Virus record (IMG/VR): IMGVR_UViG_3300022923_001281 | Strand: one strand, 5' to 3' | DNA length: 64,000 nt | Source: an uncultured virus (IMG/VR IMGVR_UViG_3300022923_001281) | Taxonomy: Duplodnaviria > Heunggongvirae > Uroviricota > Caudoviricetes | Shown: one piece after another, positions 8,223-14,279 of the stretch | How positions within the stretch are numbered: position 1 is the stretch's first letter | How the letters are laid out: the number at the start of each line of letters is the position of its first letter | Translations under genes and position numbers: made by a program | The notes under the pieces: model-generated | Told to the model about the DNA's origin: nothing | The model's database searches: none | What the model saw: only the letters and a program-made list of their open reading frames with translations

Positions 8223-8440
8223 GTGGATACAAAATTGATGAGGTAATAGGTTTACTATACCAAATCAATCTGCGTCTAAAGCGTATCGAAGACCATATGG
8301 AACTTGACGAGCAGGAACTAGAAGACATTCTTAAACAATTAGATGAAGAATTATCTACACCTCCTGCTCAAACCAAACCTAAGTTGACTGTGGTCAAAGA
8401 TGAACCTGATGATAACGTGTTTGAGTTTATACCTCGGTGA
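8219..8440 (+). CDS. hypothetical protein
   Basis: ATGA-coupled; its stop codon lies inside the 5' end of tRNA-Ser. Confidence 0.6.
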   Translation: MSGYKIDEVIGLLYQINLRLKRIEDHMELDEQELEDILKQLDEELSTPPAQTKPKLTVVKDEPDDNVFEFIPR

Positions 8441-8525
8441 CGTGGCTGAGTGGTCGAAAGCACCTCCCTGCTAAGGAGGCGTACCTTAACGGGTACCCAG
8501 GGTTCGAATCCCTGCGTCACCGCCA
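8436..8525 (+). tRNA. tRNA-Ser(GCT)
   Basis: GGTGACG/CGTCACC acceptor, CCTCC-CT-GCT-AA-GGAGG anticodon arm, long variable arm, GGTTCGAATCC, encoded CCA. Confidence 0.95.
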
Positions 8526-8542
8526 GTATAAATACTCGTGTT

Positions 8543-8618
8543 GCCCCTATAGCTCAGCTGGTAGAGCAACTGATTTGTAATCAGTAGGTCCGCGGTTCGA
8601 GTCCGTGTGGGGGCACCA
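8543..8618 (+). tRNA. tRNA-Thr(TGT)
   Basis: Canonical 76-nt cloverleaf, CTGA-TT-TGT-AA-TCAG, encoded CCA; TATAAATA at 8527-8534 upstream. Confidence 0.95.
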
Positions 8619-8630
8619 TTAGGAGGACAA

Positions 8631-9227
8631 ATGTCATTATATATCAATCGTACTGCTACTCAAAAAGGATTAACCTTTGTCCACATTCCAAAGTGTGCTG
8701 GGTCTAGCATAAAATATGCTTTGAAAGAAGCATTTCCTGAAGCAGTTGATACAAATTTTCATCACAACATTGGAAACAAAAATTTAAAAACATACTGGTC
8801 GTTTGCTGTGTTTAGAGACCCAATACAACGTGCTCTAAGTATGTATAACGAAGTATTTAACGTTTTATCAAGTCGTCCAAAAACATTAGAAAAAATTACA
8901 AAACTTTCAGCAAACGATATATACGACAATATTACGTTTGATATATTTGTACAACAATGGTTTAATCAATCAATAAATGGTATTAAACCTAGCAAAGAAC
9001 AGGTAAGATACATTAGCAATGACAGTGGAATAGTAGTAGATAAAGTTATTCCGTTTCATAAACTTACTGAACAATGGGCTGAAATTGAGGATTTTTGTAA
9101 AAAAGACATTCCTCTGCCAAAATTACGTGTTGGAAAATTTAAAACAATCAAAATGGAAGATACAACAAAGACTATACTTGAACAGTACTATGCTAAAGAT
9201 ATTCAATACTGGAACACAATAAAATAA
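8631..9227 (+). CDS. sulfotransferase family protein
   Basis: FVHIPKCAGSS (5'-PSB loop), FRDPIQRALS (3'-PB), C-terminal YYAKD; AGGAGG SD. Confidence 0.85.
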   Translation: MSLYINRTATQKGLTFVHIPKCAGSSIKYALKEAFPEAVDTNFHHNIGNKNLKTYWSFAVFRDPIQRALSMYNEVFNVLSSRPKTLEKITKLSANDIYDNITFDIFVQQWFNQSINGIKPSKEQVRYISNDSGIVVDKVIPFHKLTEQWAEIEDFCKKDIPLPKLRVGKFKTIKMEDTTKTILEQYYAKDIQYWNTIK

Positions 9228-9230
9228 CTT

Positions 9231-10733
9231 ATGCGGCACATCATAATATTCAATCAAAGTATAATGGGAAGAAGAAGCAGCGGAGCATACAAGGCTGCGG
9301 AAAGTTTTCGTGACCGTGGATTTGATACAGAAATTGTAGAATTTTTAGAACATTGGAACTTTGAAGATTTAAAAAGTTATCTAAGAAAAATAATTCATCA
9401 CGATACTGTTGGTTTTGGATTTAGTTATACATGGATGACTAGCGGTAAAGTCAGAGAACTTACAAGTTGGCTACAAAATAATTATCCAGGTAGAAAATAC
9501 TTTGCTGGAGGCCAACAACCTTTTCAAGAATACGAAGGATTCGAATTAGTTTGTACAGGATTTTTTGAAAAGGCTGCTGATGATATCATCGATTATCTTT
9601 TTAATGATAAAAAAGAACCGCCAAAACACAAAATGATACACAACGGTAGAACTATGTTGATAAATGGTGATACTGACTATCCGTCTCATAGTATGCCAGA
9701 CTTGACTGTGCGTTACTCTTACAGTGATTATATATCACCACATGAAGCACTGACAATTGAGTTAAGTCGTGGTTGTAGGTTTAAATGTAAATATTGTAGC
9801 TATGCTTTTTTAGGATTGAAAAACAGCACATACAGAAACAAAGAAAATGTAAAAGCAGAATTAATTTACAACTACGAAACCTATGGAACTAAAAATTACA
9901 TTATAGCTGACCCTACTGTAAACGATGACGATGACAAGTTACGCATGTTGGGAGAGGTAGTATCGGAGTTACCCTTTGTGCCTAATTTTTCAGCATTTGT
10001 TAGAGTTGATTTAGTTGTAGTTAGACCTTACCAAATGGAACTAATGGCAAAGGCACGTATTTGGGCACATTTTTATGGTGTCGAAACCTTTCATCCAGCA
10101 GCAGCTAAAGCAGTTGGTAAAGGCATGCCGCCACAAAAAATAAAAAAATGTCTAAAAGATATGCGTAAATATTTTTTAGATCATCTTGGATTGTATAGAG
10201 GAACAATAGGATTAATTGCTGGATTACCAGGGGAAGATAAAAAAAGTTGGCAAACCACACAGCGTTGGATGAAAAAACATTGGAAAACAGAATCATGGCA
10301 TTGGTGGCCTTTAGATATAACAGATGATAGCGACAACGATAATATCAACAGCTTGTTCAGTCGTAATCCAGAAAAGTACGGTTATCGTCCTATGAAAGAC
10401 AAAAATAAAATAGATCTTATCAAACATCAGTTTTCTCAATTTGGTAAACTTACACATCATAAAGTAGACGATGAATACTTTTTTTGGCAAAATGATACCA
10501 CTGATTTCTACGAAGCAGTCTACTGGTGTAGTGAAATGTTCCAACCTGAAAATATTTTTACCTATGATGGAAATTTTTACTTAATGAATAGATTAAGTAG
10601 TGTTGATAAGTTACAAGATGCTTTAAAATTAAAACTTAACATATGGGATGGCAAAACAATAGATACATCTACAGATCCTGAATCTCATACAATTTATGTA
10701 AAACGCAAGATAGAAAGCAAGCATAACCAATGA
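9231..10733 (+). CDS. B12-binding-type radical SAM protein
   Basis: SRGCRFKCKYC (CxxxCxxC), GVETF, IAGLPGE. Confidence 0.85.
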   Translation: MRHIIIFNQSIMGRRSSGAYKAAESFRDRGFDTEIVEFLEHWNFEDLKSYLRKIIHHDTVGFGFSYTWMTSGKVRELTSWLQNNYPGRKYFAGGQQPFQEYEGFELVCTGFFEKAADDIIDYLFNDKKEPPKHKMIHNGRTMLINGDTDYPSHSMPDLTVRYSYSDYISPHEALTIELSRGCRFKCKYCSYAFLGLKNSTYRNKENVKAELIYNYETYGTKNYIIADPTVNDDDDKLRMLGEVVSELPFVPNFSAFVRVDLVVVRPYQMELMAKARIWAHFYGVETFHPAAAKAVGKGMPPQKIKKCLKDMRKYFLDHLGLYRGTIGLIAGLPGEDKKSWQTTQRWMKKHWKTESWHWWPLDITDDSDNDNINSLFSRNPEKYGYRPMKDKNKIDLIKHQFSQFGKLTHHKVDDEYFFWQNDTTDFYEAVYWCSEMFQPENIFTYDGNFYLMNRLSSVDKLQDALKLKLNIWDGKTIDTSTDPESHTIYVKRKIESKHNQ

Positions 10734-11515
10734 GAGTTGATCAAAAAACAAACATGTTTCAATTAGCTTGCTACATAGGCGGACCATTGGTGTTGATTTT
10801 TAACTTCAACGCAGCATACTTATTTGGTTCGTGGTTATTTTCATGGATAGTAGTACATGTTGGAATCAGTATGGGATTACACCGTTGTTTTTCACACAAA
10901 TCTTGGGAACCAAAAAATAAGTTTATTCTTGTGGTGTTACATTTCTTGTCTGTAATTAACACAGTTGGTCCTAGTATTCCGTGGACTGCTACACATAGAG
11001 TACATCACAAATATTCAGACACTGATAAAGATCCGCACTGTATTAAAGATTCTACTGTATGGCAAAAATTTAAATTATGGCATAATTTTGTTCCTTATCA
11101 TCATGTAAGTCCAAGGATAGTGATTGATTTACTAAGAGATCCGTATCATAAATTTTTTAACAAGTATTATTTTCATATGTTAGTTGGCTGGGGACTGTTA
11201 TTATTTGCTATTAGTCCTGACCTGTTTATGTATGGATATCTAGTAAGCACAATGTTTTGTTTACATACCATATCGTGGATTACAGTAGGTGCCCATATGT
11301 TTGGCCATAAAGATACTGACACACACGATGATTCTAAAAACACATTTATTATGGGGTTATACTCTTGGGGAGAAGGCTGGCACAACAATCATCATGCGGC
11401 GCCATGGAGTTATGCGTTTGGATGGAACCGTAAGCAACCTGACTTTGGCAAATGGTTGATTGAAAAATTAGCAAAACCTGATTCGCTTAAAGGTGTGAAT
11501 TATTATGATAAATGA
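10730..11515 (+). CDS. membrane fatty-acid desaturase (delta-9 type)
   Basis: His boxes HRCFSH, HRVHH and GEGWHNNHH; TM segments. Confidence 0.92.
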   Translation: MRVDQKTNMFQLACYIGGPLVLIFNFNAAYLFGSWLFSWIVVHVGISMGLHRCFSHKSWEPKNKFILVVLHFLSVINTVGPSIPWTATHRVHHKYSDTDKDPHCIKDSTVWQKFKLWHNFVPYHHVSPRIVIDLLRDPYHKFFNKYYFHMLVGWGLLLFAISPDLFMYGYLVSTMFCLHTISWITVGAHMFGHKDTDTHDDSKNTFIMGLYSWGEGWHNNHHAAPWSYAFGWNRKQPDFGKWLIEKLAKPDSLKGVNYYDK

Positions 11516-12149
11516 AATTGTATCTTCGGGTAGAGTAAGATTACATGTATTTGATCATGACAATGTTGAATTTGAAAAAGTAAGACAACAGTGCCTACAA
11601 GAAGATAATTGGCTACGTGAAAATTACACAAAAGATCGTTGTGTAATTGAAGATCACAAATTGTTTTGGATCGCTTACTTAGACGACAAACTTTGGCATT
11701 TCAGCGGTTTGCTTGAATTATCTCCACATGTAGCTAGAATACTCAACAGAACTTATATGTTTCCTGAATGGCGTAGTCCAAGACAAATTACATATCATCA
11801 TGATCAACTAGCTAACCATGTAATTCCATTGGTAGAACAAGTGTTAGGCTTTGAATATGATTTACTGTTTTTCAGTATGCAAAGACGCAAGCGTGGATAT
11901 CAAATTGAAAAACAACCTTGGTGGGAAAATGTTAAACGTAGTTGGATGAGCGTCACAGACAAATGGCAATCGTTTGATGATGGGCTAGTTAGAATATATC
12001 CAGACGAACAAGAAAGTTGTTATCAAAATGTGATTTATAAAAGCAATGGATATACATTAAAGGACTGGGGTCCGCGAATTATTACATATAATGAATATAT
12101 AGAAAAATTTTACAAAAAAGATGAAGATTTTTTTGTTTCTTGGCAATAA
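11505..12149 (+). CDS. hypothetical protein (possible GNAT-like fold)
   Basis: 214-aa coupled ORF; ARILNRTYMFPEWR resembles a GNAT motif A region. Confidence 0.55.
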   Translation: MINEIVSSGRVRLHVFDHDNVEFEKVRQQCLQEDNWLRENYTKDRCVIEDHKLFWIAYLDDKLWHFSGLLELSPHVARILNRTYMFPEWRSPRQITYHHDQLANHVIPLVEQVLGFEYDLLFFSMQRRKRGYQIEKQPWWENVKRSWMSVTDKWQSFDDGLVRIYPDEQESCYQNVIYKSNGYTLKDWGPRIITYNEYIEKFYKKDEDFFVSWQ

Positions 12150-12154
12150 AATGG

Positions 12155-12183
12155 TTGACAACGGTGTAATAGTTTGCTATATT
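12155..12183 (+). promoter_or_regulatory. sigma70-type promoter (extended -10) upstream of the structured RNA
   Basis: TTGACA-N17-TATATT with TGc. Confidence 0.8.
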
Positions 12184-12210
12184 ATAAACATAACAAAGAC
12201 GACGGTCCTA

Positions 12211-12402
12211 GTTAGATAGTGCAAGGAAACGATGCTTACCCAGGCATTAACTTGACTCACACGCTGTGGTGGCGCTGTAAGACTTTGGAGACAAAGCATT
12301 GCAGAAAAAGTAGGATTAACCATTCTATTGTGAGGTTCCGTGTTGTTTTGAGCCTGATGGGGCATAACGCGGTTGTTGGTAATCAGTAGTCCAACCTATC
12401 AC
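12211..12402 (+). ncRNA. large structured ncRNA, possibly manA-motif-like
   Basis: Helices seen: GATAG/CTATC, ATGCTT/AGGCAT, CTCACA/TGTGAG, CTGTAA/TTGCAG capped by CTTTG-GAGA-CAAAG, CCGTGTTGT/ATAACGCGG, GTTGG/CCAAC; no credible ORF; higher GC than flanks. Confidence 0.7.
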
Positions 12403-12403
12403 A

Positions 12404-12411
12404 TATAAATA
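12404..12411 (+). promoter_or_regulatory. T4-type late promoter TATAAATA
   Basis: Exact T4 late consensus just before the leader-peptide SD. Confidence 0.6.
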
Positions 12412-12429
12412 CAACGAAGGAATTTTAAC

Positions 12430-12492
12430 ATGTTCAAGACTAACACAATATGTATAATATGTTGGCCACCAGGAGATTGGGGTATGTCTTGA
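12430..12492 (+). CDS. putative attenuator leader peptide MFKTNTICIICWPPGDWGMS
   Basis: GAAGGA SD at 12416-12421, ATG 12430, TGA 12490-12492, followed by an intrinsic terminator. Confidence 0.65.
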   Translation: MFKTNTICIICWPPGDWGMS

Positions 12493-12520
12493 CATGACTT
12501 TATAAAAAAGTTATTTCAAC

Positions 12521-12555
12521 AGCCCCTAGCATTAAATTTGTTAGGGGCTTTTTTT
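12521..12555 (+). terminator. intrinsic terminator / attenuator
   Basis: AGCCCCTAGCA/TGTTAGGGGCT 11-bp stem followed by a T tract. Confidence 0.85.
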
Positions 12556-12557
12556 AT

Positions 12558-12633
12558 AACTACACTACACCTTACTGCAATAAGGTGTCGTTGCAGAGAC
12601 AGAGGCCTCGAAAGGGCTAAAGATAGTGTAGTT
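12558..12633 (+). ncRNA. compact multi-stem RNA with kissing loops, function unknown
   Basis: AACTACACTA/TAGTGTAGTT closing stem; CACCTTA-CTGCAA-TAAGGTG hairpin whose loop is complementary to TTGCAG (12591-12596); GCCTC-GAAA-GGGC hairpin. Confidence 0.6.
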
Positions 12634-12650
12634 TTAAAAAAAGTTTTTAA

Positions 12651-12735
12651 GCAGGTGCGCTACAGTCGGAGAGGTAGGCTGGTCTCCAAAACCAGTGCGT
12701 TAGCTGAGCGAGTTCGAATCTCGCCACCTGTGCCA
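12651..12735 (+). tRNA. tRNA-Trp(CCA), atypical long variable arm
   Basis: GCAGGTG/CACCTGT acceptor, CTGGT-CT-CCA-AA-ACCAG, 12-nt variable region, GCGAG-TTCGAAT-CTCGC, G73, CCA end. Confidence 0.85.
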
Positions 12736-12737
12736 AT

Positions 12738-12815
12738 CGGGGCTTGGGAAAGTCTGGTCAATCCGCCTGTTTTGGGAACAGGAAATCGCTGGTTCGAATC
12801 CAGCAGCCCCGACCA
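12738..12815 (+). tRNA. tRNA-Pro(TGG)
   Basis: CGGGGCT/AGCCCCG acceptor, CCTGT-TT-TGG-GA-ACAGG, encoded CCA. Confidence 0.93.
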
Positions 12816-12821
12816 AATAAT

Positions 12822-12896
12822 GCGCTTGTAGTTCAGTGGTAGAACCGTCCGCTCATAACGGATCAGTCGGGAGTTCGAATCTCTCCGGGCGCACCA
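12822..12896 (+). tRNA. tRNA with CAT anticodon (elongator Met or lysidine-type Ile2)
   Basis: G1-C72 paired and no GGG/CCC anticodon stem, so not an initiator; TCCG-CT-CAT-AA-CGGA; encoded CCA. Confidence 0.9.
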
Positions 12897-12918
12897 TATT
12901 TCCTTAATAAATATTGGC

Positions 12919-13071
12919 ATGTTCAAAGCAACCAAAGAAACTATTTGGCATCTCACATGTATAAAATGTAAAAACTGGTTCACATATGCTACAATGGAAA
13001 AAATGTGTATAGACAGGTACACGTTTCATTGTCCACATTGTGGATCAAAGGGTAAAGTTACTCCGGAGTGA
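12919..13071 (+). CDS. 50-aa zinc-ribbon protein (not in ORF track)
   Basis: MFKATKETIWHLTCIKCKNW...HCPHCGSKG; two CxxC pairs; TAAATA 5 nt upstream of the ATG. Confidence 0.7.
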   Translation: MFKATKETIWHLTCIKCKNWFTYATMEKMCIDRYTFHCPHCGSKGKVTPE

Positions 13072-13073
13072 TA

Positions 13074-14279
13074 ATGTCAAAATGTATTGTACCATGGACG
13101 CAAATTGAAATTTGCGCTACAGGATTCTGCCGCCCGTGTGCTGAATATGGAACTGATTTAAAATGGGATGACGGTAAACGAATAGATTTTAATGATAAAA
13201 ATACAACTTTAGATAAAGTTCTTAAATCAAACGACTATAAAACTTTACGTGATCAATTTAGAAATAATGAAAAACCAGAGGGCTGTAGAAAGTGCTGGAA
13301 ACTTGAAGAACAAGGATTGAAAAGTAGAAGACAGCGAGAACTAGAAGCGCATGAACAACATCTTGATTTAATCTCTACAGATGAAACAAAAATAGTTTTG
13401 TTTGACATAAAGCTAGGTAACCATTGTAATTTAAAATGTAATATTTGTAACAGCGAATACAGCAAGAAATGGGAAAAAGATGAAATGGATTGGTATGGAC
13501 AAGTCATCAATCCAAGTTACGGAAAAGACTGGTTAAGCAATCCACAGCATTGGCAGGATATAAAGAAACAATGTGACAGTTTAGAAGTTTTATATCTTAG
13601 CGGCGGCGAACCCTTTCTTACTAAACATAATGACGAACTTCTTACACACCTAATTGATATAGGTAGAGCGAAGGATGTTTGGATCAAATATCATACCAAC
13701 GGAACCTATAAACTTACTGAAAAACTTATAAATCAATTTAAGCAATTCAAACGTATACAATTGATGTACAGCATTGATGATATAGGTAGGCGTTATGAAT
13801 ATCAAAGACCTCCGGCTAAATGGCATCGGGTAGAATCAAATTTTATACATGCGTTAGAACATGGTTTTATTGATACAAAAATTTGTTATACAGTGAGTTT
13901 GTTTAATAGTCTTAGCGGACAAGAGATGGAAACGTGGTGTGCTAGTGTTGGTTTTAATTTAGATAACCTAGAAGTAAATTTTGCTAGAGATCCTATACAC
14001 TATGATTTAAGTATGCTCGGCGACGAACAAAAAACTATGTTACTAAACAAACTAGGACATGGTAAAATTGATACTGAAGTATCAAAATACATTAAAAGTT
14101 CACATCAACCCACATTTGATGAGACTGGATGGCCAGTAAAATCAAAAAAAGAACTTGACAACTTGCGTAAGTATGTTATAAGTAAGGTAGACAGTAAGAG
14201 CAACATGTCTCTTATGGATGTCAGTCCTGAAATAGAAAAAGTGGTAAATTATGATGAAAACTTGTGTATTACAACGTAA
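13074..14279 (+). CDS. radical SAM protein with N-terminal SPASM/twitch-like Cys cluster
   Basis: CNLKCNIC, SGGEPFL, YHTNGT; N-terminal C..PW...CRPC...GCRKCW. Confidence 0.85.
   Translation: MSKCIVPWTQIEICATGFCRPCAEYGTDLKWDDGKRIDFNDKNTTLDKVLKSNDYKTLRDQFRNNEKPEGCRKCWKLEEQGLKSRRQRELEAHEQHLDLISTDETKIVLFDIKLGNHCNLKCNICNSEYSKKWEKDEMDWYGQVINPSYGKDWLSNPQHWQDIKKQCDSLEVLYLSGGEPFLTKHNDELLTHLIDIGRAKDVWIKYHTNGTYKLTEKLINQFKQFKRIQLMYSIDDIGRRYEYQRPPAKWHRVESNFIHALEHGFIDTKICYTVSLFNSLSGQEMETWCASVGFNLDNLEVNFARDPIHYDLSMLGDEQKTMLLNKLGHGKIDTEVSKYIKSSHQPTFDETGWPVKSKKELDNLRKYVISKVDSKSNMSLMDVSPEIEKVVNYDENLCITT

What the first reader, a model, noticed from the sequence alone, without database searches (positions are those of the whole stretch)
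12404..12896. Leader-peptide attenuator that appears to sense the very tRNAs it controls
Seen: TATAAATA, then a GAAGGA SD, then a 20-codon ORF (ATG TTC AAG ACT AAC ACA ATA TGT ATA ATA TGT TGG CCA CCA GGA GAT TGG GGT ATG TCT TGA), then a strong intrinsic terminator (12521-12555), then tRNA-Trp(CCA), tRNA-Pro(TGG) and tRNA(CAT). The leader's core holds 3x ATA, 2x TGG and 2x CCA plus an internal ATG. These are the codons read by the three downstream tRNAs (ATA only if the CAT tRNA is lysidine-modified Ile2; ATG if it is Met). ACA matches the phage tRNA-Thr(TGT). Alternative pairings exist: CATGTTCAAGAC (12429-12440) with GTCTTGACATG (12486-12496), and TTGGGGT (12477-12483) with the terminator 5' arm GCCCCTAG as an antiterminator. 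Established: trp/his-type attenuation uses this geometry, and host anticodon nucleases deplete tRNAs during phage infection. Inference: ribosome stalling when host tRNAs are depleted or cleaved allows read-through, so the phage makes replacement tRNAs on demand. I know of no described phage tRNA operon regulated this way.
Basis: partly seen in the sequence, partly recalled or inferred. Interest (0 to 1): 0.9.

Follow-up and report, generated by a model that had tools for sequence, protein, structure and literature searches.

The report
Codon-matched attenuator gating phage tRNAs
An uncultured marine giant phage puts a tiny test gene and a switchable transcription stop in front of its spare tRNA genes, and across related phages the test gene's codons change with the tRNAs behind it, so the phage probably makes these tRNAs only when ribosomes struggle to read those codons.

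Summary
Of 131 relatives recruited without using the ORF, 130 keep a short ORF with an in-frame TGG (shuffled: 9%), and 126 have tRNA-Trp first after the terminator. The leader folds into exclusive 1:2, 2:3 and 3:4 helices. A ribosome-footprint model switches from antiterminator to terminator just after the TGG. In 88 complete arrays, leader codons track downstream anticodons: ATA with an AUA-reading tRNA in 13 of 16, against 0 of 53 ATT/ATC leaders; Cys, Gln and Ser likewise. tRNAs upstream of the leader do not (19 of 144; null 19.7). The CAT tRNA is Ile2-like. Not supported: the second TGG, internal ATG, ACA-Thr link and a Pro signal. Against: windows were chosen post hoc, the strict tree test lacked power, 2:3 shows no covariation, nothing was measured, and the nuclease trigger is untested. 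This scan noted this family and analogous systems on other DNA before; ten searches of an open-access library found no paper. New variant of a known kind.

The parts
12155..12183 (+). sigma-70-type promoter (TTGACA, 17 nt, TG-extended TATATT); likely start of a manA-leader-tRNA transcript
   Evidence: 11 of 12 consensus; a similar promoter lies 23-37 nt upstream of the leader start in 109 of 113 distinct upstream sequences
12195..12405 (+). manA RNA (Rfam RF01745); an optional upstream neighbour, not part of the attenuator
   Evidence: 58 bits against gathering 55.2; a manA-like 3' motif precedes the leader in 2 of 88 loci (crude motif test)
12404..12411 (+). TATAAATA; possible second promoter element, role not shown
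   Evidence: sequence; TAAATA in 97 and TATAAATA in 39 of 113 upstream sequences
12416..12421 (+). Shine-Dalgarno GAAGGA
   Evidence: AGGA or GGAG 4-18 nt before the start in 107 of 130 homologues
12430..12492 (+). leader ORF, 20 codons (MFKTNTICIICWPPGDWGMS)
   Evidence: ORF with in-frame TGG in 130 of 131 ORF-independent recruits; ATG/GTG starts and TGA/TAA stops interchange
12429..12440 (+). segment 1 (start region), pairs with 12486-12496: probable pause/protector helix
   Evidence: 91% of cells paired, 39 two-sided changes against 8.5 shuffled, 0 of 500 shuffles
12454..12468 (+). sensing codons ATA ATA TGT TGG CCA; TGG 12463-12465 is invariant and sits at the switch point
12479..12526 (+). 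antiterminator 2:3: GGGGU 12479-12483 with GCCCC 12522-12526, enclosing the stop codon and an inner hairpin 12494-12514
   Evidence: -17.8 kcal/mol; 91% paired in 90 homologues but no covariation above shuffles
12521..12556 (+). intrinsic terminator 3:4 with U tract
   Evidence: z -5.5; 96% paired, 50 two-sided changes against 15
12560..12631 (+). optional structured spacer RNA (multi-stem; two loops are complementary, CUGCAA/UUGCAG); function unknown
   Evidence: z -2.8; 9 of 26 consensus pairs with two-sided changes in 12 sequences, one of them mis-cut; 45 of 126 homologues have a 70-100 nt gap, most of them this RNA or variants
12651..12735 (+). tRNA-Trp(CCA), with a long variable arm; always the first gene of the array
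   Evidence: first gene in 126 of 131
12738..12815 (+). tRNA-Pro(TGG)
12822..12896 (+). tRNA with CAT anticodon, most likely tRNA-Ile2 (reads AUA after C34 modification), not Met
   Evidence: G1-C72, G3-C70, C4-G69, U12-A23, C29-G41, A73 read against passages of PMC1635315 and PMC9976931; occurs only with ATA leaders

Best explanation
A ribosome-mediated transcription attenuator that controls a phage tRNA array. Host RNA polymerase transcribes the leader, probably pausing at the 1:2 helix, and a ribosome follows. If the ribosome is slow at the invariant TGG or at the few codons before it (here ATA ATA TGT), segment 2 is free when GCCCC emerges, the 2:3 helix forms and transcription runs into tRNA-Trp, Pro and Ile2. 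If decoding is fast, the ribosome covers segment 2, the 3:4 terminator forms and the array stays off. Trp is the fixed sensor; the neighbouring codons are a variable second input matched to the other tRNAs of the array, at isoacceptor level. Once made, the tRNAs would speed the leader and shut the array: a negative feedback on tRNA supply. Shown by computation: anatomy, conservation, exclusive helices, switch position, codon-anticodon co-variation. Inferred: translation, pausing, read-through, feedback and the physiological trigger.
For: ORF plus in-frame TGG in 130 of 131, shuffled 9%; tRNA-Trp first in 126 of 131, the other five being one non-homologue and four with 52 nt or less downstream. 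TGG-to-GGGGU distance is 13, 16 or 19 nt in 118 of 130, i.e. steps of three. Footprint model: mean P(2:3) 0.98-1.0 with the A site at or before TGG, 0.79, 0.43, 0.15, 0.02 at W+1 to W+4 in 124 homologues; the edge moves one codon for 9 or 15 nt footprints. Covariation for 1:2 and 3:4. In 88 arrays, 132 of 155 non-Trp tRNAs have a cognate codon at W-4..W+3, against 93.7 +/- 3.4 shuffled; p 0.0003 also when shuffled only within clusters at four cut-offs. ATA leaders carry tRNA TAT or CAT in 13 of 16 (6 TAT only, 5 CAT only, 2 both), ATT/ATC leaders in 0 of 53. tRNA-Cys in 50 of 74 leaders with TGY beside W, 0 of 14 without. Negative control: tRNAs upstream of the leader match 19 of 144, null 19.7. 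The nearest cultured relatives (PA5oct group) use host RNA polymerase and TTGAC/TATAATA promoters (passages of PMC7318152).
Against: No expression or read-through measurement; RNA-run contigs were uninformative. The 2:3 helix has no covariation above shuffles (233 of 500), and its 3' side was partly fixed by my search patterns. At equilibrium the full window transcript always prefers 3:4, so read-through depends on folding kinetics. Untranslated RNA prefers 2:3 in 107 of 121 homologues, unlike classical super-attenuation. One Trp codon is fewer than the two or more of classical leaders and predicts low sensitivity (passages of PMC1183508). Codon windows were chosen after seeing the data. The tree was poorly resolved and the strict independent-pairs test had 4 pairs for ATA and was not significant. 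ATA is p 0.09 at the tightest cluster cut-off, and Gln and Ser are not significant at the two tightest. Pro and Arg show no signal, and many leaders hold codons (TGT in this window) whose tRNA is absent.
Confidence: 0.78

Rival explanations
1. A plain Trp attenuator: only the TGG is sensed. The other codon-anticodon matches are carried along because leader core and array are adjacent and move as one block.
For: TGG is the only invariant codon and tRNA-Trp the only constant gene. Strict tree test not significant. Pro and Arg do not co-vary.
Against: ATA-positive leaders fall in 8 to 12 clusters at cut-offs 0.20 to 0.12 and pair with two different decoders (TAT, CAT) of differing sequence and array position. 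Close sisters differ in step: L281 TGT with tRNA-Cys, L234 GGT with tRNA-Gly and no Cys. Upstream tRNAs, also linked, show no match.
Confidence: 0.12
2. A general translation-stress or nascent-peptide sensor: the W-P-P or W-C-P motif slows the ribosome or arrests it with a drug or free Trp, and the array is induced by translation trouble of any kind.
For: Pro follows W within two codons in most leaders. Any stall before W+1 gives antitermination in the model, and untranslated RNA mostly prefers 2:3. A bacterial tRNA array is induced by translational stress (abstract and passages of PMC8421152). Slow Pro-Pro and TnaC-type arrest are recalled, not checked.
Against: The peptide sequence varies widely around W, and synonymous ATA and ATT behave differently with respect to the array, which points to decoding and not to the peptide.
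Confidence: 0.06
3. A terminated small non-coding RNA or small-protein gene; the tRNAs have their own promoter and the ORF is incidental.
For: The leader folds as a three-way junction (z -3.4). In the first relative seen all ORF changes were non-synonymous and kept pairs. A TTGACA hexamer overlaps the stop codon.
Against: Frame, SD and TGG are conserved far above shuffles. TTGACA is kept in 25 of 131 and has a -10-like partner in 5. No promoter found at 12380-12700. A gap of 10 nt or less to tRNA-Trp in 62 of 126. It does not explain the co-variation.
Confidence: 0.04

Closest known systems
Ribosome-mediated transcription attenuators of amino-acid operons (E. coli trp, his, leu, thr, ilvGMEDA, ilvBN, pheA; passages of PMC1183508)
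   Same: Short leader ORF with control codons, exclusive I:II, II:III and III:IV helices, intrinsic terminator, switch set by ribosome position.
   Different: Controls tRNA genes, not enzymes; sits in a phage; one invariant Trp codon plus variable codons matched to isoacceptors of the array; segment 1 is the start region; no sequence family match (best Rfam hit trpB motif 26.4 bits against gathering 59); untranslated RNA mostly favours the antiterminator at equilibrium.
Inducible tRNA L-array (trn operon) of Anabaena PCC 7120 (abstract and passages of PMC8421152)
   Same: Spare tRNA genes that are silent until translation is impaired.
   Different: The paper proposes promoter repression and does not use the word attenuation (0 occurrences); no codon-matched leader.
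Phage tRNAs as a counter to host tRNA depletion (first third of PMC10264068)
   Same: Gives a motive for on-demand phage tRNAs.
   Different: The part read concerns nuclease-resistant sequences, not regulated expression; 'transcription' has 0 occurrences in the text.
T-box riboswitches (recalled; the review asked for was not held)
   Same: tRNA status controls a terminator/antiterminator switch; I recall T boxes before some tRNA genes in Firmicutes but could not verify it.
   Different: T boxes bind tRNA directly without a ribosome; no T-box match in the window.
manA RNA motif, Rfam RF01745 (passages of PMC2864571)
   Same: The window carries a member directly upstream of the leader.
   Different: It is a neighbour in 2 of 88 loci; most manA-pattern hits precede other genes and have no tRNA nearby.

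Membership tests
Ribosome-mediated transcription attenuators (trp/his type) | Short leader ORF with ribosome-binding site, conserved in frame | tested here: met
   130 of 131 ORFs; SD-like motif in 107 of 130; shuffles 32%
Ribosome-mediated transcription attenuators (trp/his type) | Control codons cognate to the product of the controlled genes | tested here: met
   invariant TGG with tRNA-Trp first; ATA, TGY, CAR, TCR track their tRNAs
Ribosome-mediated transcription attenuators (trp/his type) | Two or more tandem control codons for the sensed amino acid | tested here: not met
   tandem TGG in 1 of 88 leaders; 15 have a second TGG at W+5, inside segment 2; tandem ATA in 13 of 88
Ribosome-mediated transcription attenuators (trp/his type) | Mutually exclusive 1:2, 2:3 and 3:4 helices ending in an intrinsic terminator | tested here: met
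   1:2 and 3:4 covary; 2:3 is conserved and energetically comparable but without covariation
Ribosome-mediated transcription attenuators (trp/his type) | Stall at control codons leaves segment 2 free; progress to the stop covers it | tested here: met
   footprint model only, 124 homologues, three footprint sizes on 33
Ribosome-mediated transcription attenuators (trp/his type) | Super-attenuation when the leader is not translated | tested here: inconclusive
   equilibrium folding favours 2:3 in 107 of 121, window 0.3-0.5; co-transcriptional trapping in 1:2 not modelled
Ribosome-mediated transcription attenuators (trp/his type) | Controlled genes are amino-acid biosynthesis or synthetase genes | tested here: not met
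   controlled genes are tRNAs in all 96 complete arrays
Ribosome-mediated transcription attenuators (trp/his type) | Read-through measured to depend on translation and charged tRNA | not testable with these tools
   only assembled RNA contigs were available
Rfam trpB motif RF04312 and other Rfam leaders | Score at or above the gathering threshold | tested here: not met
   trpB 26.4 bits against 59, E 0.27; other leader hits weaker
tRNA-Ile2 (CAT) | G3-C70 or other non-C3-G70 pair, C4-G69, U12-A23, C29-G41, A73; no C1-A72 mismatch | tested here: met
   read by eye; C5-G68 is absent in the window's tRNA
tRNA-Ile2 (CAT) | Lysidine-type modification of C34 | not testable with these tools
   needs tRNA analysis in the unknown host
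manA RNA RF01745 (12195-12405) | Full-length match above gathering score | tested here: met
   58 bits against 55.2, model 1-192 of 192

The most novel reading that the evidence does not exclude
The leader is a re-programmable, isoacceptor-level tRNA gauge: each phage lineage rewrites the codons just before a fixed Trp codon to match the tRNAs it carries, and thereby detects host tRNA-destroying defences as they fire and answers with replacement tRNAs. The leader codons would then be a record of which tRNAs become limiting, or are cut, in the unknown host.
Probability: 0.3. Interest if true: 0.93.

Novelty: new variant of a known kind. Interest (0 to 1): 0.84.

Why it matters
Why phages carry tRNAs has been open for over 50 years (PMC10264068). 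A 130-nt switch whose input codons match its output tRNAs says which tRNAs the phage treats as conditionally scarce, separates them from an unmatched upstream set (Thr, Leu, Gly, Ser-GCT), and makes codon compensation versus defence-driven depletion testable with a simple reporter. It would also extend ribosome-mediated attenuation from amino-acid enzymes to feedback control of tRNA genes, and offer a compact codon-specific sensor.

Tried and rejected
My first reading, a structured non-coding RNA with an incidental ORF, fell once many homologues were in hand. The manA 3' pattern found 56 loci, almost all before other genes. The 15-nt leader pattern gave 50 loci, mostly chance, with one new homologue. 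A scan meant as a prospective ATA test returned 26 loci: 2 chance hits, 23 with leaders already seen and 1 new leader, which has a CAT tRNA; it is not an independent test, and one ATA leader type (L284, L520, L523, L545) has only Trp and Cys. Among 34 truncated arrays listed, 5 of 5 tandem-ATA leaders show TAT or CAT and 0 of 29 others do, but these were seen before and are cut short. Prokaryote genomes: 0 hits with one pattern, and none of 54 hits of another matched the model. Cultured phages: no DNA match to the leader; the model found nothing in Paride, Atu_ph07 or XacN1; Paride has no tRNA-Trp. Gp23 search rang nowhere, controls included. RNA runs: one contig (12488-12646, run X1) spans the terminator, but depth is low, flanking genes are covered alike and DNA may contribute; no conclusion. 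The treekit independent-pairs test was underpowered (part of its output was cut). No whole genome is held. The host was not identified.

Full report
What is there. The window is part of a large phage genome: clamp loader, tail fibre, baseplate, endolysin and PhoH genes, nearest cultured relatives the PA5oct/Paride jumbo phages at 57% identity in the clamp loader. A related contig of 275 kb is rated 77% complete. No promoter-like site was found at 12380-12700.

Homologues. I first took the leader for a non-coding RNA, because the first relative showed only non-synonymous, pair-preserving changes. Wider scans overturned this. Of these, 130 have an ORF of 12 or more codons and all 130 hold an in-frame TGG; shuffles give 32% and 9%. 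The miss is a non-homologue. tRNA-Trp(CCA) is the first gene in 126; four others are cut within 52 nt. In the 113 ORFs called the first TGG is codon 10 to 13, starts are ATG or GTG and stops TGA, TAA or TAG. The distance from TGG to the GGGGU strand is 13, 16 or 19 nt in 118 of 130. These elements are relatives, not independent draws. All hits came from viral or metagenome contigs; none from prokaryote genomes or cultured phages. Each of five virus records searched has one copy.

Structure. On an alignment of 90 of 121 distinct elements, helix 1:2 (start region with the stop region) is 91% paired with 39 two-sided changes against 8.5 in shuffles, and terminator 3:4 is 96% paired with 50 against 15. 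Antiterminator 2:3 is 91% paired, 28-63% when slid, but shows no covariation above shuffles; its segments are nearly invariant, and part of that was fixed by my patterns. Median energies are -18.9, -20.1 and -16.9 kcal/mol for 1:2, 2:3 and 3:4. Blocking the RNA up to 12 nt past the A site and folding the transcript just after GCCCC emerges gives P(2:3) of 0.98-1.0 at or before TGG and 0.79, 0.43, 0.15, 0.02 at the next four codons (124 homologues). With 9 or 15 nt the edge moves by one codon (33 homologues). In the window a stall at the second TGG or the internal ATG gives P(2:3) near 0. Two results do not fit the textbook: the full window transcript prefers 3:4 at equilibrium, so read-through must be kinetic, and untranslated RNA prefers 2:3 in 107 of 121 homologues.

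From 137 distinct elements over all scans I dropped 6 without a callable ORF and 35 with incomplete or missing arrays, and merged duplicates, leaving 88. ATA at W-3..W-1 goes with a TAT or CAT tRNA in 13 of 16, and 0 of 72 without; TGY beside W with tRNA-Cys in 50 of 74, 0 of 14 without; CAR with Gln in 9 of 25, 0 of 63; TCR with Ser(TGA) in 12 of 24, 2 of 64. Doubled Pro codons (p 0.5) and Arg (p 0.32) show nothing; any CCR gives 42 of 83 against 0 of 5 (p 0.057). Mismatched pairs of codon and tRNA were not significant (p 0.21-1), though ATA leaders have somewhat larger arrays (p 0.027). Overall 132 of 155 non-Trp array tRNAs have a cognate codon at W-4..W+3, against 93.7 +/- 3.4. The signal runs from W-8 to W+2, peaks at W-3 and W-2 (z about 9) and is absent from W+4 on, where the footprint model says a stall no longer helps; those later codons vary little, so power there is low. 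The match is at codon level: 53 leaders with ATT or ATC but no ATA have no TAT or CAT tRNA. tRNAs within 1.5 kb upstream, mostly Thr, Leu, Gly and Ser(GCT), match at chance level, 19 of 144 against 19.7.

Kinship control. Shuffling only within clusters keeps the global result (p 0.0003 at four cut-offs) and Cys (p 0.002 or less). ATA is p 0.09 at the tightest cut-off and 0.008 or less at the others; Gln and Ser are not significant at the two tightest. Nearest-neighbour pairs go 12 to 0 for ATA, 10 to 0 for Cys, 9 to 0 for Gln, 11 to 0 for Ser and 5 to 6 for Pro, but they are not strictly independent. On a tree from the codon-free parts the ATA trait changes 12 times and the tRNA trait 9 times, yet only 22 of 83 branches are well supported and the strict test had 4 pairs and was not significant. 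The windows were chosen after I had seen the table, and the scan meant as a fresh test gave one new leader.

The CAT tRNA. The window's tRNA has G3-C70, C4-G69, U12-A23, C29-G41 and A73 and no C1-A72 mismatch, which fits Ile2 by the passages read in PMC1635315 and PMC9976931. It interchanges with a TAT tRNA behind ATA leaders and does not track ATG.

Mechanism. The best reading is a ribosome-coupled attenuator with a fixed Trp input and variable inputs matched to the array, closing a negative feedback on tRNA supply. PA5oct uses host RNA polymerase and similar promoters (passages of PMC7318152), which would allow coupling; that this phage does so is inferred. What makes decoding slow in nature is open: cleavage by host defences, starvation, or rare host isoacceptors. 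Many array anticodons read A-ending codons, which fits codon compensation; Trp and Cys normally have a single decoder (established knowledge), which codon compensation does not explain. I put the attenuator at about 0.9 in some form, the multi-codon form at 0.78, and the defence trigger at about 0.3. RNA-run contigs could not test expression.

Literature and earlier notes. Ten full-text searches of an open-access library listed no paper on a leader-peptide attenuator before tRNA genes, judged from listings and abstract starts; most subscription journals are not covered. I read passages of PMC2864571, PMC9964418, PMC1183508, PMC1635315, PMC9976931, PMC7318152, the abstract and passages of PMC8421152, and the first third of PMC10264068. 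No supplements were read; those of PMC2864571 list manA contexts and may bear on this locus. T-box control of tRNA genes is recalled only. This scan has noted the same family on another genome (e1-6130539) and analogous systems elsewhere (336 notes share the search words); these are leads, not support.

Verdict. Real, conserved, and most likely a new variant of ribosome-mediated attenuation applied to phage tRNA genes. Interest 0.84.

Noticed in passing
window 12195-12405: manA RNA directly behind a strong sigma-70 promoter and before the attenuator; in several other phage contigs manA is followed at once by its own terminator-like hairpin (L006, L007, L027, L050), which suggests a free-standing RNA and not a 5' cis-regulator.
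   Followed up: partly
window 12560-12631: Optional 72-nt multi-stem RNA with complementary loops between terminator and tRNA-Trp; at least three variants share the closing stem, and two loci (L354, L449) have a tiny ORF-like insert in this place.
   Followed up: partly
window 12651-12735: tRNA-Trp has a long variable arm and weak Rfam score (41.8 bits); homologous arrays use several unrelated tRNA-Trp scaffolds, so the first gene is swapped while its anticodon is kept.
   Followed up: no
L069 1064-1157 (-), L234, L273, L281: tRNAs with TAT anticodon and long variable arms (about 94 nt), of two different types; unusual for Ile tRNAs.
   Followed up: no
window 8436-8618: Second tRNA pair Ser(GCT), Thr(TGT) abutting a protein gene; across loci the upstream tRNA set (Thr 37, Leu 26, Gly 11, Ser-GCT 10) hardly overlaps the attenuated set, while ACA is the commonest non-Trp leader codon.
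   Followed up: partly
L277, L451, L504: Divergent leader with tandem TGG TGG and an earlier stop, closer to classical trp leaders, on an otherwise typical terminator.
   Followed up: partly
window 12919-13071: 50-aa Cys-rich (two CxxC) ORF right after the array; a homologue lies just before the leader promoter in L069. No PHROG match.
   Followed up: no
window 8607-14279: Cluster of metabolic-type genes around the array: sulfotransferase-like, radical SAM, and others without PHROG match.
   Followed up: no
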